Shown here piece after piece: positions 1,802-25,810 of a stretch of DNA of 34,412 nucleotides (the stretch's first letter is position 1; the number at the start of each line of letters is the position of its first letter). A model generated the notes under the pieces. That model saw nothing but the letters and a program-made list of their open reading frames with translations. It did no database searches and was not told the DNA's origin. Location: contig JAFTHM010000086.1 of NCBI GenBank assembly GCA_017457425.1, forward strand, positions 1 to 34,412, given 5' to 3'. The position numbers were made by a program, and so were the translations under genes. Source of the stretch: Alphaproteobacteria bacterium (lineage in GTDB: Bacteria > Pseudomonadota > Alphaproteobacteria > CAAHEQ01 > UBA3637).

Positions 1802-4234
1802 ATGAAATACTCAAATACAGCCTTAAAAAACCTGAGCGCCCGTTATGGCAAAGTTTTGCGTAAGTGCGCTTATTTAAATGCTATCGTTTTAACAGCCGCA
1901 ATGATGGCAACACCGGCAATGGCCGAAACAGGCATCGCCTCAAGCGATTCTCCTGTTACTAAAACATGGGCAGCCGATATGACTAGTGGCAAGTATCAAG
2001 AATCATTAGGACATAGATTGCAATTAATCGGTATGACCGAAGGAAAATACAGTTATGATGCAGATAACTTGGCCTTGACTGTTTCCGCATCTGATAACAA
2101 CAAAATCAGTGCCACAAAATTCCATACAGGTATTCAAACATTTAAAGCCGAAGACAAACACCCGACTTTCACAGTGGTTGGTGATGCCAATACAACAATT
2201 GACTTAAGTGCAACCGGAACAGAATGGAATATCGTTTCCCGCTTTTCCAAAATGAATATCGGCTCGGCGAATTCGGCTATCGGCACACTTAATGTTACAA
2301 ACGAAAATATCGAAACCGGCAGTCTAATTTACGTTACCAGCGGAAACAGCAAAGCTGACGGAAATGTACACGAATTAAACATCTATGCCAATAACATTTC
2401 ACTGAAAACGAATGGTACGGCTATTACAGGTAACGAAGGTAAATTAACTTTGGTTGCCAATGAAAAATTGGACATTACCGGTGATATTAATGGATATAAC
2501 GATGTTTATGGCGGACATGCCGATTTAACATTTAACATCAACCAAAATGCCGGCAATACCGCCATCACGACAATCAAAGGCAATATCGATGCCGCCAAAG
2601 GATCCGTTGTCAATATCGGATTAAAAGGGGCCGGTTCTTCCATTACAGGTGATTTATTGGTCAGCGCCAACGGAACAACATTACCGGGTGGTGAAATTAA
2701 TTTAGGATTCGGAACTGGTGGTTCAATTACCGGTAATATGACGGCTCAAGATGAAGGCCATATCTCCATTTCCGGTGATGATTTAGTGGCTGTAAACGGC
2801 AACATCAGCATTGATGACAAATCTTCATTAACAGCCAGCAATATTTCCCATAATTCCGGTACAATCGCTAACGATGGTACATTAACATTGGGAAATAACA
2901 TTGTCTTGACAGAAGGTGTCACAGGTACCGGTTCCGTTGTATTTAAAGAAGGTTCTTCATTGAAAACAGCTCTGAACAATTCTACCTCTTTGATTTCCGG
3001 CAATACTGTCACAGGTACAACTTCTTTAGTCATTGACAATGGAACAACAAATGCCACATTGAATATGTTTGATGCTTCTCAAAGCGGATTTACATTTGCC
3101 AATAACACATTGTATGATATTATTGAAGATACAACAACCGCCGGAACATATAACATTTCTAAAAAATCCACAGAAGCTATTACGGAGTCTTTGACATCTG
3201 CCGGTGCCGATACGACAACGGCTGAAACAGTGGCTGCCGTTACAGAGGCTCAACCGACGACTCCGGAGGCTGCCGCCATTGTAGAAGCTATTACAACGGC
3301 CGCTCAATCGGGTGATATCGCTGCGGTTGCCGAAATCACGGAAAAAATCAATCCGACAACAACACCAGTTGTGCAACAACAATCCGTTGCTATGGCTTCC
3401 CAAATCTTCAACGTAACGGGTAATCGTATGAGTGCTCATGGTTTTGGACGCAGCGGTGGTGACCTTAACATAACGGTTGGTCCGTGGATTCAAGGGTTAT
3501 ACAACAAAACACACAACAGCCAAGGCGTCGGTTTTGACGGATACAGCCAAGGTTTTGCCCTCGGTTTAGACTTTGATGTTTGCAAAAACTTCATGTGGGG
3601 TTTCGGTTACGGTTATACGGCAACAGATGTTAAATCAAACGGCCGTAAAACTCAAATCTATGCCGATAACATCTTCTTATACGGTAAATATCAACCAAGT
3701 AAGTGGTATGTCAGCGGTATTGCCAACTATGGCCATTCCAACTATAAGGAAGCTGCCTTGGGCTTAACCAGCAAATACAACGTGGACACATACTCTGCAG
3801 CCGCTACAGTCGGTTACCAAGAAGGTATCTTTGATAACTATGCTGGACTTCGTTATAGCTATATCACACCGGACAGCTATTCCAATGGCTTAACAACGGT
3901 TGAAGGTAAAAACGCTCAAGTCGGTACTGCCGTTATCGGAACAAAGATTTCCAAAGCTTACAAAACAGATGGAGCCGTTTGGAAACCGGAAGTTCGTTTG
4001 GCTGCCACATATGATATCAAATCCGATAATTCTTCCAGCATTGTCGGTATCGTCGGCGGTTCCAGCACTTACATGGTGGAAGGCAAACGTCAAAAACGCT
4101 TTGCTGTTGAAGCCGGTGTCGGTTTAACAACAACAGTTGCCCGTAATTTAGATATTACGTTAAATTACGATGCTAACTTGCGTTCAAAACAAACATCTCA
4201 AACGGGTTCTGTGAAGTTGAAATACAGCTTCTAA
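1802..4234 (+). CDS. Type V autotransporter (adhesin-like passenger plus C-terminal beta-barrel)
   Basis: Long signal peptide ending ATPAMA; G/N/T/S-rich beta-helix-like passenger; barrel from about GRSGGD...PWIQGLY; terminal KLKYSF; AAGGAG RBS. Confidence 0.92.
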   Translation: MKYSNTALKNLSARYGKVLRKCAYLNAIVLTAAMMATPAMAETGIASSDSPVTKTWAADMTSGKYQESLGHRLQLIGMTEGKYSYDADNLALTVSASDNNKISATKFHTGIQTFKAEDKHPTFTVVGDANTTIDLSATGTEWNIVSRFSKMNIGSANSAIGTLNVTNENIETGSLIYVTSGNSKADGNVHELNIYANNISLKTNGTAITGNEGKLTLVANEKLDITGDINGYNDVYGGHADLTFNINQNAGNTAITTIKGNIDAAKGSVVNIGLKGAGSSITGDLLVSANGTTLPGGEINLGFGTGGSITGNMTAQDEGHISISGDDLVAVNGNISIDDKSSLTASNISHNSGTIANDGTLTLGNNIVLTEGVTGTGSVVFKEGSSLKTALNNSTSLISGNTVTGTTSLVIDNGTTNATLNMFDASQSGFTFANNTLYDIIEDTTTAGTYNISKKSTEAITESLTSAGADTTTAETVAAVTEAQPTTPEAAAIVEAITTAAQSGDIAAVAEITEKINPTTTPVVQQQSVAMASQIFNVTGNRMSAHGFGRSGGDLNITVGPWIQGLYNKTHNSQGVGFDGYSQGFALGLDFDVCKNFMWGFGYGYTATDVKSNGRKTQIYADNIFLYGKYQPSKWYVSGIANYGHSNYKEAALGLTSKYNVDTYSAAATVGYQEGIFDNYAGLRYSYITPDSYSNGLTTVEGKNAQVGTAVIGTKISKAYKTDGAVWKPEVRLAATYDIKSDNSSSIVGIVGGSSTYMVEGKRQKRFAVEAGVGLTTTVARNLDITLNYDANLRSKQTSQTGSVKLKYSF

Positions 4235-6930: not shown

Positions 6931-6963
6931 ATCTTATTTACCTCATTTAACGAAAAATACCTA

Positions 6964-6992
6964 TTGCATTTACGGATAAAATTTGGTACTGT
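6964..6992 (+). promoter_or_regulatory. Putative sigma70 promoter of RNA copy 1 and the pilin-like gene
   Basis: TTGCAT-17 nt-TACTGT with TG upstream of the -10; the first hairpin starts about 8 nt downstream. Confidence 0.6.
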
Positions 6993-7000
6993 ACAGCCAA

Positions 7001-7180
7001 GGCATGTATTATGCCCCGAGGTTTAGAAGCCTCTTGAAAGTTGTCTGAGTGCAGACGTAAAAAACTACCTTTTTGCCATTGGCAGGAAGGTAGTAGAATA
7101 AGGGTTTTATACCCCAATATACTACACTATTCTTTCAATAGCTTCTAACTTCCTGCCACTTTTAAAGTGGTTTTTGTTTT
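7001..7180 (+). ncRNA. Structured RNA family copy 1 (C4-antisense-like leader of the pilin-like gene)
   Basis: Hairpin GGCAT/ATGCC; GAGG-loop-CCTC; TTGAAAG/CTTTCAA; GTAGTA/TACTAC. TTAGAAGC and GGCAGGAAG pair with the contiguous GCTTCTAA-CTTCCTGCC (7141-7157). Ends in a hairpin plus T run. Confidence 0.75.
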
Positions 7181-7207
7181 AACGTAATGGACAAGAAAGG
7201 GAATTTT

Positions 7208-8401
7208 ATGACGATGAAACATTATGACTCCGGTCGTTCTATGGTTGAAATGCTGGGAACATTGGCGATTATCGGTGTTCTATCTGTTGGCGCTATCGCA
7301 GGATACAGCTACGGAATGGATAAATACCGTGCCAATCAAACGATTAATGATGTGATGCTGTTGGGGGTGGATGTAATTACACAAGCCTCACGAACTGCCG
7401 GAATGCCGAACTTATCTGCCGATTGGGGAACTAAAACAACAGCCGGATATGATTTTACGGTTGTACCAAACCCCTCAGATGATACGCAATACGGCCTTCA
7501 AATCAGCGGGGTTCCCGCCCGAGTGTGTAAAATGGTGGGTGATGCGTTAAAACCCATGGCCTCAGTTTATGTAAATGATGATGAACATATCACCGAAGAA
7601 GACCCGTGCGACGAATCGGACAACAACACCATGGAATTTTATTTTGACGTTTCCGCCACTTCGGGAGACCAATGTAAAATTGATGCCGATTGTGGAACCG
7701 ATAAATATTGCGATATGGGATTATGCTTTAGTGGGAATCACCCCGAAGTAATGGCCAATATCGTGGGTGGAACGTGTACCTCGGATGCTGATTGTAATAA
7801 GGGGTGGACAGGAACGAATTGCGCGTATTGTGATGCGACCTATGGATGTGTGGAAAAGTTTAATAATCACAATAAAGCGTGCACCTTAACGGATGGCAAT
7901 ATCGCCGGTAAATGTGCTGGTGGCCAATGTTTACCAACAGGTTGTACCTACGATACGAATAAATGCAGCGATAAAGAATATTGCGCCAGTCCGAACAATA
8001 GCTGTACCGAAGTCTTCCAAAGTGGAGAAACAGGTATGTGTGTGCCTATCAATACTACCTTTTCTAAAATCTCGGGAACCGAGTATTACATCTCCAATGG
8101 TCTGCTCAGTTGGTGGGATGCGGATGCCGCGTGTAAATCCATTAAAAAAGAGTTGTTGAGTGTATCTGACCTTGTTACGGAAAAGGATGGTAGTGCTTGG
8201 AAAGGAGATAATGGCGTTCACACCACAACGGCTCTTGCCAATGAATTATATAGTAAAGGATGGAACAGTACTGGGTATCCGTTCATCTGGACGAAAAACT
8301 GGCTAAATGATTCTTGCTACGCGTACGGCGTGTACCTGCGTAATGGTAACGTCTACAACGGCAATCGCTACGCCGAGGGCTACTACGTAGTCTGTAAGTA
8401 G
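7208..8401 (+). CDS. Type IV pilin-like protein with a Cys-rich stalk and C-terminal C-type-lectin-like domain; probable DGR target
   Basis: Prepilin-like SG|RSMVEMLGTLAIIGVLSVG (Glu at +5); CxxDADC repeats; CLec-like LSWWDADAACKS...IWT...AYGVYL..G......R.....VVCK; ATG at 7208 follows GAAAGG. Confidence 0.8.
   Translation: MTMKHYDSGRSMVEMLGTLAIIGVLSVGAIAGYSYGMDKYRANQTINDVMLLGVDVITQASRTAGMPNLSADWGTKTTAGYDFTVVPNPSDDTQYGLQISGVPARVCKMVGDALKPMASVYVNDDEHITEEDPCDESDNNTMEFYFDVSATSGDQCKIDADCGTDKYCDMGLCFSGNHPEVMANIVGGTCTSDADCNKGWTGTNCAYCDATYGCVEKFNNHNKACTLTDGNIAGKCAGGQCLPTGCTYDTNKCSDKEYCASPNNSCTEVFQSGETGMCVPINTTFSKISGTEYYISNGLLSWWDADAACKSIKKELLSVSDLVTEKDGSAWKGDNGVHTTTALANELYSKGWNSTGYPFIWTKNWLNDSCYAYGVYLRNGNVYNGNRYAEGYYVVCK
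8312..8401 (+). other. Candidate DGR variable region (VR)
   Basis: Run of NNC codons (7 of 7 Tyr are TAC; AAC, GGC, GCC) on a fixed A-x-x-V-x-L-x-x-G-x-V scaffold at the end of a CLec-like domain. Confidence 0.65.
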
Positions 8402-8435
8402 TTTTTCGGCTTTTTAATAGGGGGGACTTTTGTCT

Positions 8436-8469
8436 ATCGCCGATACTTATAGGCATCGGCGATTTTTTT
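8436..8469 (+). terminator. Hairpin after the pilin-like gene (terminator and/or DGR target-recognition stem-loop)
   Basis: ATCGCCGAT-10 nt-ATCGGCGAT followed by a T run, 35 nt after the stop. Confidence 0.7.
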
Positions 8470-8484
8470 AATTCCATATTCCTC

Positions 8485-15639: not shown

Positions 15640-15830
15640 ATTCGGCATGATACCGAATGTGGAGGGCTCAAAACCTCCTCAAAGACGCCCTATCGCATGG
15701 GGCTTCCTCCAATTATGCGACTTCCGTCATGGCTGGAAGGTGGTAGAATAGCCCTAGGTCAATATACCACACTATTTCTTTGAGTAGTTTTGAGCTTCCA
15801 GCCACTCTTTTTTTAAGTGTGGCCTTTTTC
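15638..15830 (+). ncRNA. Structured RNA family copy 2 (orphan, no downstream CDS)
   Basis: GCATTCGG/CCGAATGT; GGAGG-loop-CCTCC; CTCAAAGA/TCTTTGAG; GTGGTA/TACCAC. CTCAAAAC and GGCTGGAAG pair with GTTTTGAG-CTTCCAGCC (15787-15803). GCCAC/GTGGC hairpin plus Ts. Confidence 0.78.
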
Positions 15831-25733: not shown

Positions 25734-25810
25734 GCGCCCGTAGCTCAATTGGATAGAGCATCTGACTACGGATCAGAAGGTTGTAAGTTCGAATCCTGCC
25801 GGGCGCGCCA
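25734..25810 (+). tRNA. tRNA-Arg(ACG)
   Basis: GCGCCCG/CGGGCGC acceptor stem, TCTGA-CTACGGA-TCAGA anticodon arm, TTCGAAT T loop, encoded CCA; T stem is imperfect. Confidence 0.95.

What the first reader, a model, noticed from the sequence alone, without database searches (positions are those of the whole stretch)
8312..8469. Type IV pilin-like gene ends in an apparent DGR variable region (remote target)
Seen: the final codons read tgc TAC gcg TAC GGC gtg TAC ctg CGT AAT ggt AAC gtc TAC AAC GGC AAT cgc TAC GCC GAG GGC TAC TAC gta gtc tgt aag tag. This is an abrupt shift to NNC codons and higher GC at the end of a C-type-lectin-like domain, followed 35 nt later by a 9-bp inverted repeat. Established: DGRs mutate adenines of AAC/AAT-rich template repeats, leaving NNY codons at ligand-binding positions of CLec folds, and a downstream stem-loop aids targeting. 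Inference: a template like AAC GCG TAC AAC GTG AAC CTG AAT AAT GGT AAC GTC AAC AAC AAC AAT CGC AAC AAC... lies elsewhere beside an RT. That would give hypervariable pilus adhesins, here also placed under the structured RNA leader.
Basis: partly seen in the sequence, partly recalled or inferred. Interest (0 to 1): 0.85.

Follow-up and report, generated by a model that had tools for sequence, protein, structure and literature searches.

The report
Retroelement-diversified tip of a pilin-like adhesin
The last 30 codons of this pilin-like lectin gene were rewritten by a mutagenic retroelement (DGR) found on another contig, one of several such genes in a small gut alphaproteobacterium, though the element's reverse transcriptase now looks broken.

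Summary
The observation and the interpretation both hold. ORF 7187-8401 encodes a 404-aa protein with a pilin-like N-terminus, a Cys-rich middle and a C-type-lectin-fold end. Its last 30 codons (8312-8401) are a DGR variable region (VR).

The predicted template exists on contig C69 of the same 1.34-Mb assembly, in a bAvd-TR-RT cassette. Window VR against TR: 16 of 31 template adenines differ, but only 2 of 41 other bases (Fisher p=6e-6).

At least three more paralogs in this genome fit as well or better, as do at least 10 in a sister species. Across 12 VRs, identity is 94% at non-A template positions, 38% at A positions and 64% just upstream. A conserved 3' element and hairpin follow the VRs.

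Present activity is doubtful. The only RT has an in-frame TAA. The window VR carries non-A changes. Contigs from two of the four runs laid (one from each of two studies) cover the whole VR without a difference; a third covers its first 51 nt.

This is a new member of a known kind: a multi-target DGR acting on modular pilin-like adhesins.

The parts
7187..8401 (+). Target gene: a 404-aa modular pilin-like protein. The probable true start is near 7208-7214, by comparison with paralogs. One of about 29-50 pilin-like paralogs in this genome.
   Evidence: ORF list; paralog N-termini; 50 matches in G000.
7208..7393 (+). Short leader ending in Gly, then the hydrophobic N-terminal helix (G|RSMVEMLGTLAIIGVLS..., Glu at +5). 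This is a class III (prepilin-type) signal resemblance.
   Evidence: Sequence. AF2 model has a helix at residues 10-62. The 9 best Foldseek rows are type IV pilins, E 3e-3 to 6e-2. HMMs are below cut-off.
7694..8050 (+). Cys-rich middle region (repeated CxxDxDCG-type motifs); a likely spacer or stalk. It is the part that varies most between paralogs.
   Evidence: Translation; weak DUF7107 match, E=0.035; paralog comparison. Function not tested.
8054..8398 (+). C-type-lectin-like (CLec) fold domain that carries the VR on its last strands and loops.
   Evidence: AF2 model pLDDT 80. VIA-align Z 10.1 to Bdellovibrio Bd2740 C-terminal domain, Z 8.4 to Legionella Lcl C-terminal domain, many CTLDs. 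Foldseek best E 1e-3.
8312..8383 (+). Mutagenised part of the VR: 24 codons, 14 of them at template AAC/AAT positions. It has one more NNC codon than the TR's (AAC)4 run.
   Evidence: TR/VR codon alignment: A mismatches 16 of 31, non-A 2 of 41, Fisher p=6e-6.
8384..8435 (+). 3' end of the VR plus a conserved 3' element, the candidate IMH. It comprises the last 5 codons, the stop and a T-rich/G-run motif. TR homology continues to 8416 and then stops.
   Evidence: Alignments of VR loci and TR. 5 of 16 non-A positions differ from the TR in the tail.
8436..8463 (.). Hairpin with a 9-bp stem and 10-nt loop, followed by T7 (8464-8470). It could be a DGR target-recognition hairpin, an intrinsic terminator, or both.
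   Evidence: Fold z=-3.86. 11-pair consensus stem in 12 loci, 4 pairs with compensatory changes.

Best explanation
Window 8312-8401 is a variable region of a diversity-generating retroelement (DGR). It lies in a remote (trans) target gene that encodes a modular, type-IV-pilin-like protein ending in a C-type-lectin fold.

The cassette, bAvd - template repeat - reverse transcriptase, lies on contig C69 of the same genome. The mechanism below is inferred from the established DGR model of Bordetella phage BPP-1 and Legionella. TR RNA is copied by the RT/Avd complex, which misincorporates opposite adenines. The cDNA then replaces the VR, guided by the conserved 3' element and hairpin. AAC/AAT codons in the template become NNC/NNT codons in the ligand-binding face, while scaffold codons are copied faithfully.

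One TR has served several paralogs: at least 4 clear ones in this genome and at least 10 in a sister species. That gives a repertoire of hypervariable adhesin tips, presumably displayed through the cell's type IV filament machinery.

Shown here: the cassette, the TR, the adenine-specific pattern, scaffold homogenisation among paralogs, the CLec fold, the conserved 3' element and hairpin, and the machinery genes.
Inferred: retrohoming itself, pilus display, and ligand binding.

In this strain the system is probably idle or recently dead. The RT is interrupted by a TAA, and this VR has begun to collect ordinary (non-A) substitutions.
For: Cassette and template:
- C69 holds bAvd at 270-695 (PF22296 2e-16, 60.8 bits over a cut-off of 40; best NCBIfam match is DGR Avd NF033474, 54.5 bits, below its 80-bit cut-off). 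It also holds an AAC-rich TR at 843-929 and an RT at 981-2129 (RVT_1 in both halves, with YVDD).

Adenine specificity, A mismatches against non-A mismatches:
- window VR: 16 of 31 against 2 of 41;
- C13: 23 of 43 against 0 of 47;
- C105: 18 of 33 against 1 of 42;
- C54: 20 of 31 against 1 of 41.

Homogenisation:
- Among 12 VRs from three species, mean pairwise identity is 93.8% at non-A template positions, 38.5% at A positions and 63.7% in the 120 nt upstream.

The same scaffold elsewhere:
- It occurs in at least 10 VRs of G004, one of G005 and one metagenome contig.
- Homologous avd-TR-RT cassettes with homologous TRs and intact RTs (396-432 aa) occur in three other genera of the family.

Likely cis target:
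- C69 begins with the 3' arm of the VR hairpin. In G004 the syntenic target gene sits directly upstream of that point, so a cis target probably precedes avd.

Fold, 3' element and machinery:
- CLec fold.
- 3' element and hairpin conserved.
- A24 prepilin peptidase, three T2SSE ATPases, and a T2SSF platform and secretin clustered on C87.
Against: - The only RT found in the assembly has an in-frame TAA, at a position where intact homologs have Thr or Ala.
- The window VR has 2 non-A mismatches in variable codons, a 3-nt length difference, and 5 of 16 non-A mismatches in its last six codons. It is therefore not a fresh copy of the present TR.
- Contigs from X1 and X3 (two samples, two studies) cover the whole VR, and one from X2 covers it to 8362, all with 0 differences. 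X3's contig for the downstream flank has 14 differences in 495 nt. One of these runs may be the source of the assembly.
- Contigs hide minority variants, so this is weak evidence of stasis, but no evidence of ongoing variation was obtained.
- The same-genus genomes G001, G002, G004 and G005 gave no RT match. G004's syntenic site lacks the cassette.
- The pilin assignment is below family-model cut-offs.
Confidence: 0.88

Rival explanations
1. The DGR is still active in this lineage. On this reading the TAA in the RT is an assembly or consensus error, a minority allele or is read through, and the window VR is merely held stable by selection or by low homing frequency.
For: C13, C105 and C54 show 0-1 non-A mismatch to the TR outside the last six codons, and every non-A change would have been erased only by recent homing. 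The X5 contig over 8246-8423 has 10 differences in 178 nt, against 24 in 832 nt for the preceding contig. The positions were not shown, so they could lie at A sites. bAvd is intact.
Against: The TAA is in the assembly consensus, and no second RT was found. The window VR has identical letters in X1 and X3, and in X2 as far as its contig reaches. The window VR carries non-A changes.
Confidence: 0.3
2. The window VR was written by a different template from the one on C69: an older TR version, or a second unassembled one with a longer AAC run and a ...TGT AAG tail.
For: VRs fall into two tail types...TGT CGG TAG like the TR and ...TGT AAG TAG as in the window, C105, C9 and three G004 loci. The number of NNC codons after CGC ranges from 4 to 11 against 4 in the TR. 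Almost every VR examined has GTC where the G000 TR has GTT; none has GTT.
Against: Only one RT, one bAvd and one TR-like AAC tract were found in a genome estimated 98.8% complete. Tail differences are expected if the cDNA crossover lies upstream of them (IMH). Length changes are confined to AAC runs, where slippage is plausible.
Confidence: 0.12
3. There is no retroelement involvement. On this reading the N/Y/G/D-rich end is an ordinary fast-evolving loop region of a paralog family, homogenised by gene conversion, and the AAC-rich copy on C69 is a decayed gene fragment.
For: The TR is evidently derived from a target-gene 3' end: homology extends a few codons upstream and 18 nt past the stop. 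Gene families can undergo conversion.
Against: Differences fall on template adenines at p=6e-6 to 6e-10 in four VRs. The fragment sits exactly between bAvd and an RT, in the canonical order. The same arrangement recurs in three other genera. Third-codon positions of scaffold codons are identical across paralogs that are only about 64% identical just upstream.
Confidence: 0.02

Closest known systems
Canonical DGRs with CLec-fold variable proteins (Bordetella phage BPP-1 Mtd, Treponema denticola TvpA, Legionella pneumophila LdtA). Recalled from the literature, not fetched here.
   Same: Avd-TR-RT cassette; AAC-rich TR; adenine-specific TR/VR differences; VR at the extreme C-terminus of a C-type-lectin fold; conserved 3' element and hairpin after the VR.
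   Different: This target is remote from the cassette and is one of several targets. It has a pilin-like N-terminus rather than a phage fibre or lipoprotein. The hairpin loop is 8-10 nt, whereas I recall a 4-nt loop in BPP-1. VR length differs from the TR at AAC runs. The RT is interrupted.
Multi-target DGRs with remote targets, such as the one in multicellular bacteria (PMC10907252, abstract seen) and those I recall for cyanobacteria. Roux et al. 2021 (PMC8144416, passage seen) state that remote targets escape contig-based surveys.
   Same: One cassette serves many paralogous target genes scattered over the genome.
   Different: The targets here are pilin-like surface adhesins in a 1.3-Mb gut alphaproteobacterium, not putative antigen sensors or regulators of large-genome bacteria.
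Bacteroides DGRs that diversify adhesive tips of type V pili (bioRxiv 10.1101/2024.11.15.621889, abstract and one passage seen).
   Same: A gut bacterium in which a DGR diversifies a pilus-associated adhesive component; AAC-codon logic.
   Different: A different pilus system (type IV-like class III signal here), a different phylum, and many trans targets.
Modular type IV pilins with a grafted functional module, for example Streptococcus sanguinis PilB (PMC8179133, abstract in listing only).
   Same: A pilin N-terminal module followed by a C-terminal functional (adhesive or lectin) module.
   Different: The module here is a DGR-diversified CLec domain behind a Cys-rich stalk. Incorporation into a filament is untested.
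[quoted passage not shown]
   Same: A pilin-type N-terminal domain in a DGR target.
   Different: The survey gives no detail in the text seen. Whether any of its cases belongs to this family is unknown.

Membership tests
Diversity-generating retroelement (DGR) target/VR | A reverse transcriptase next to a template repeat in the same genome | tested here: met
   The RVT_1 match spans C69:1224-1898 in an RT frame at 981-2129 (62 bits over the 29.6 cut-off, read through 1 TAA). The halves score 25.5 and 35.4 bits. The TR ends about 50 nt upstream. YVDD and an IGNLTSQ motif are present; that the latter is DGR-typical is recalled. Caveat: the frame is broken by one TAA.
Diversity-generating retroelement (DGR) target/VR | Accessory protein Avd | tested here: met
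   Pfam bAvd 60.8 bits (cut-off 40), E=2e-16. NCBIfam DGR Avd NF033474 is the best match but below its cut-off, 54.5 against 80 bits.
Diversity-generating retroelement (DGR) target/VR | TR/VR pair whose differences fall almost only on template adenines | tested here: met
   Window VR: 16 of 31 A against 2 of 41 non-A mismatched, outside the last six codons (p=6e-6). Three paralogs give p from 1.5e-7 to 6e-10.
Diversity-generating retroelement (DGR) target/VR | VR at the C-terminal end of a C-type-lectin (or Ig) fold | tested here: met
   AF2 model pLDDT 80. VIA-align Z 7.8-10.1 to 50 C-type-lectin-like domains. The VR is the last 30 codons.
Diversity-generating retroelement (DGR) target/VR | IMH-type 3' element and hairpin that set the direction of transfer | tested here: inconclusive
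   A conserved 3' element and an 11-pair hairpin follow 12 VR loci. The TR shares only the first 15-18 nt after the stop. Function cannot be tested here, and in the window the hairpin plus T7 also fits a terminator.
Diversity-generating retroelement (DGR) target/VR | Ongoing VR diversification within populations | tested here: inconclusive
   Contigs only. The VR letters are identical in X1 and X3, and in X2 as far as 8362. X5 has 10 differences in 178 nt at positions not shown. Raw reads were not available.
Type IV pilin / pseudopilin (type IV filament subunit) | Class III signal peptide: short basic leader, Gly at -1, Glu at +5, hydrophobic helix | tested here: inconclusive
   The motif is visible in the sequence and invariant in 17 aligned relatives (G9, E14). 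Residue +1 is Arg, which is atypical. Pfam N_methyl 13.2 bits (cut-off 21.2) and TIGR02532 10.4 bits (cut-off 16.3).
Type IV pilin / pseudopilin (type IV filament subunit) | Pilin fold: long N-terminal helix packed on a beta-sheet | tested here: inconclusive
   Model pLDDT 73.6, helix at 10-62 followed by 4 strands. The 9 best Foldseek rows are type IV pilins (TcpA, an ETEC type IVb pilin, S. Typhi type IVb pilin, C. difficile PilA1), but E is only 3e-3 to 6e-2.
Type IV pilin / pseudopilin (type IV filament subunit) | Assembly machinery in the same genome | tested here: met
   Peptidase_A24 on C114. T2SSE on C87, C108 and C137. T2SSF and secretin on C87 beside the ATPase.

The most novel reading that the evidence does not exclude
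A whole family of reduced-genome gut Alphaproteobacteria keeps a retroelement-driven repertoire of surface adhesins. One Avd-TR-RT cassette rewrites, in trans, the lectin tips of many (4 to at least 10 per genome) modular type-IV-pilin-like proteins. Slippage on the template's AAC runs adds length variation to the binding loop, a second axis of diversity not part of the standard DGR model. Cassette loss or decay, as in this strain and in G004, then freezes a repertoire.
Probability: 0.4. Interest if true: 0.72.

Novelty: new member of a known kind. Interest (0 to 1): 0.55.

Why it matters
This is a clean worked case of a DGR acting on remote targets. The largest metagenome survey says it could not detect that class (PMC8144416, passage seen).

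It also links DGR hypermutation to type-IV-pilin-like modular adhesins in an uncultured, small-genome gut alphaproteobacterium from ruminants. About 29-50 pilin-like paralogs take up a sizeable part of its 1.3-Mb genome.

If the proteins are displayed on filaments, this would parallel the type V pilus tip diversification reported for Bacteroides, in a different pilus system.

The series of fresh, ageing and decayed VRs, together with a nonsense-interrupted RT, gives a natural picture of how a DGR repertoire freezes and decays. The length variation confined to AAC runs is a testable hint of template slippage during retrohoming.

Tried and rejected
- Rfam at gathering thresholds found only a tRNA at 25734-25807. 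Nothing was found near the gene or its leader.
- Pfam and NCBIfam gave no family above cut-off for the target protein.
- NCBIfam has no DGR-specific RT hit. The RT halves hit only general RT families (group II intron, Drt, retron), all far below cut-off.
- A weak RT-like stretch at C105:10721-11011 (E=7e-4, 3 TAA) was not confirmed by the RVT_1 family search, so I dropped it.
- I considered a genetic-code explanation for the TAA in the RT and rejected it. Neighbouring long ORFs on C69 (argS-like, dnaX-like, groEL-like) are uninterrupted.
- The metagenome-contig scan found no near-identical ortholog of the window gene (best 73% identity). No allele comparison was therefore possible. It did yield one more VR that fits the TR (L077).
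- Read laying used assembled contigs only. In one search, joints that skip the VR (for example 8300>8390 in X3 and 8281>8379 in X5) go with contigs about 85% identical upstream. I read these as paralogs, not alleles.
- Literature searches for a type IV pilin DGR target found only one passing mention of a G-type pilin domain. Search terms: 'diversity-generating retroelement'+'pilin'; +'type IV pil'+'variable region'; a 6-term search; 'Alphaproteobacteria'+'RF32'+'gut'+'pilin' (0 papers). The mention is in PMC11661182. Supplementary tables of that paper and of PMC8144416 were not seen and may list such targets.
Full report
**Observation.**
The window ORF 7187-8401 (+) encodes 404 aa.

This block differs from the rest of the gene. 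17 of 29 sense codons end in C, against 87 of 375 elsewhere (Fisher p=1e-4). No other 29-codon window of the ORF has more than 13. GC is 54% against 44.5%.

Thirty-four nucleotides after the stop lies a 9-bp inverted repeat (8436-8444 / 8455-8463) followed by seven T. As single-stranded DNA it folds at -10.5 kcal/mol, z=-3.86, and 0 of 200 shuffles fold as well.

**The template exists.**
A BLAST of 8250-8470 against the window's own assembly found similar 3' gene ends on contigs C13, C105, C54, C68, C9 and C137. The assembly (G000) is 1.34 Mb in 154 contigs, estimated 98.8% complete, with 39% GC. The search also found one copy on C69 in which the variable codons are AAC or AAT.

That copy (C69:843-929) translates as SCNAYNVNLNNGNVNNNNRNNNNYAVCR*.

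It sits between two genes:
- a bAvd gene at C69:270-695 (Pfam bAvd 60.8 bits, cut-off 40). Its best NCBIfam match is DGR Avd, though below that model's cut-off;
- a reverse transcriptase at C69:981-2129 (RVT_1; a YVDD box and an IGNLTSQ motif).

Only one RT and one bAvd were found in the assembly, both on C69. The window gene is therefore a remote target, as far as a fragmented assembly can show.

**Adenine specificity.**
I aligned TR and VRs codon by codon in three parts: the first 19 codons ungapped, the following run of template AAC codons, and the last six codons counted from the end. Mismatches in the first two parts:

| VR | A positions mismatched | non-A positions mismatched | Fisher p |
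|---|---|---|---|
| window (C76) | 16 of 31 | 2 of 41 | 6e-6 |
| C13 | 23 of 43 | 0 of 47 | 6e-10 |
| C105 | 18 of 33 | 1 of 42 | 1.5e-7 |
| C54 | 20 of 31 | 1 of 41 | 4.6e-9 |
| C137 | weaker | | 1e-3 |
| C68, C9 | largely decayed | | about 0.03 |

A further NNC-rich end on C19 lacks the 3' element and has many non-A changes.

In the last six codons the window VR differs from the TR at 5 of 16 non-A positions. It ends ...TGT AAG TAG where the TR has ...TGT CGG TAG.

**Homogenisation across paralogs and species.**
A sister species of the same genus (G004) carries at least 10 VRs built on the same scaffold. G005 carries one, and a metagenome contig (L077) another.

For the 12 clear VRs, mean pairwise nucleotide identity is 93.8% at non-A template positions, 38.5% at A positions and 63.7% in the 120 nt just upstream. 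Scaffold codons are identical even at synonymous sites, while the surrounding gene has diverged. That is what repeated overwriting from one template produces.

Homologous avd-TR-RT cassettes with homologous TRs and uninterrupted RTs (396-432 aa) occur in three other genera of the same family. One of them has a nearby target with a signal-peptide N-terminus rather than a pilin-like one.

**3' element and hairpin.**
Twelve VR loci share a T-rich/G-run element after the stop codon, followed by an 11-pair consensus stem. Four of its pairs show compensatory changes. The TR shares only the first 15-18 nt after the stop and then diverges. This is the layout expected for IMH against IMH*.

A role in targeting is an inference from the BPP-1 and Legionella work, which I recall rather than fetched. 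In the window the hairpin plus T-run would also serve as a terminator. In two loci (L007, L032) no T-run follows, which argues that termination is not its only role.

**Cassette context.**
C69 begins with the 3' arm of the VR hairpin. In G004 the syntenic region runs target gene - VR - hairpin - the same 33 nt, and then joins the argS side at 94.5% identity. However, about 370 nt stand there in place of avd-TR-RT.

So a cis target probably precedes avd in G000. C13 ends immediately after its VR and is the obvious candidate, though this is unproven. The cassette is absent from the syntenic site in G004.

**The protein.**
- C-terminal domain. The last 121 residues model as a C-type-lectin-like domain (pLDDT 80). 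All 50 best VIA-align rows are such domains, with Z 7.8-10.1. They include the Bdellovibrio Bd2740 C-terminal domain, the Legionella Lcl C-terminal domain and intimin. Foldseek's best E-value is 1e-3.
- N-terminal domain. The N-terminus has a short leader ending in Gly, Glu at +5 and a hydrophobic stretch that is invariant in relatives. The model gives a 53-residue helix followed by a sheet (pLDDT 73.6). The nine best Foldseek rows are type IV pilins, at weak E-values of 3e-3 to 6e-2. The pilin HMMs stay below cut-off, and residue +1 is Arg. I therefore call the protein pilin-like, not a proven pilin.
- Machinery. The genome encodes an A24 prepilin peptidase, three T2SSE ATPases, and a T2SSF platform and secretin clustered on C87.
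- Family size. It holds about 29 (motif count) to 50 (protein search matches) pilin-like paralogs. Sixteen ORFs have the SWWDA-type lectin domain. All 24 genomes of the family that were searched have relatives.

**Is it active now?**
Three points argue against present activity:
- The RT frame contains a TAA where intact homologs have Thr or Ala.
- The window VR carries non-A changes and a one-codon length difference.
- Assembled contigs match the window with 0 differences across the VR: the whole VR in X1 and X3 (two samples, two studies), and as far as 8362 in X2. X3's contig for 8406-8900 has 14 differences.

There are caveats. One run may be the source of the assembly, and contigs hide minority variants. 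A fourth run (X5) has a contig with 10 differences in 178 nt over the VR, at positions that were not listed. C13, C105 and C54 are nearly free of non-A changes, which argues for homing not long ago.

My estimate is about 0.3 that the element is active in this strain. It is about 0.9 that this VR was written by this or an immediately ancestral DGR.

**An unusual detail.**
VR length differs from the TR only at runs of template AAC codons, always by whole NNC codons. There are 4 to 11 codons after the CGC codon, against 4 in the TR, plus single-codon insertions in the earlier AAC run in two G004 VRs. Slippage during reverse transcription, or past TR length variants, could explain this. Neither was tested.

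**Organism and habitat.**
Relatives are titled 'MAG: Alphaproteobacteria bacterium', one of them from sheep rectum. The runs that hold the stretch are gut metagenomes, several labelled goat or sheep.

**Comparison with the literature.**
- DGRs with CLec VRs, Avd and AAC-rich TRs are well known.
- Multi-target and remote-target DGRs are known (PMC10907252, abstract). Roux et al. state that contig-based surveys miss them (PMC8144416, passage).
- Pilus-tip diversification is reported for Bacteroides type V pili (bioRxiv 10.1101/2024.11.15.621889, abstract).
- A 'G-type pilin' domain is mentioned among rare VR-holding domains (PMC11661182, passage).
- I found no description of a family of type-IV-pilin-like DGR targets.

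**Verdict.**
This is a genuine DGR variable region in a remote, pilin-like, lectin-tipped target. It is a new member of a known kind, with a notable multi-target repertoire and signs of recent inactivation.

Noticed in passing
window 6960-7185: The roughly 200 nt upstream of the gene are shared at 70-88% identity with the upstream regions of many other pilin-like genes (C48, C38, C117, C147, C137, C19, C9, C52 and others), and with window 15730-15809. There is no Rfam match. I did not test its structure.
   Followed up: partly
G000 C69:1476-1478 (locus L004): An in-frame TAA splits the only DGR reverse transcriptase into 165-aa and 217-aa frames. Intact homologs in other genera have Thr or Ala at that position.
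   Followed up: partly
L032 (G004:C23) 1231-1603 against G000 C69:34-2129: At the syntenic site a sister species has about 370 nt, with a small ORF on the minus strand, in place of the avd-TR-RT cassette. It nevertheless carries at least 10 clean VRs. No RT match was found in that genome, which is estimated 77% complete.
   Followed up: partly
G000 C69:3-150 and C68 (reverse strand, just after its VR hairpin): A GC-rich, hairpin-rich repeat of about 150 nt (77% identical between the two copies) follows the VR hairpin at both places. Its nature is unknown.
   Followed up: no
window 7351-8132 (run X5): One contig matches the pilin N-terminal part and the lectin domain but has 660 other letters in place of the 780-nt Cys-rich middle. 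This suggests the middle 'stalk' is exchanged as a cassette between paralogs or strains.
   Followed up: no
L021 (G022:C50) 2666-3073: In another genus, the homologous DGR cassette has a nearby target with a cleavable signal-peptide or lipoprotein-like N-terminus instead of a pilin-like one. It ends in the same scaffold (…YAYNVNLSSGAV…YALCE).
   Followed up: no
G000 C19:20187-20315: A further pilin-like paralog has an NNC-rich end (19 of 29 codons) but many non-A changes, a TGA stop and no conserved 3' element. It looks like an old, decayed VR.
   Followed up: partly
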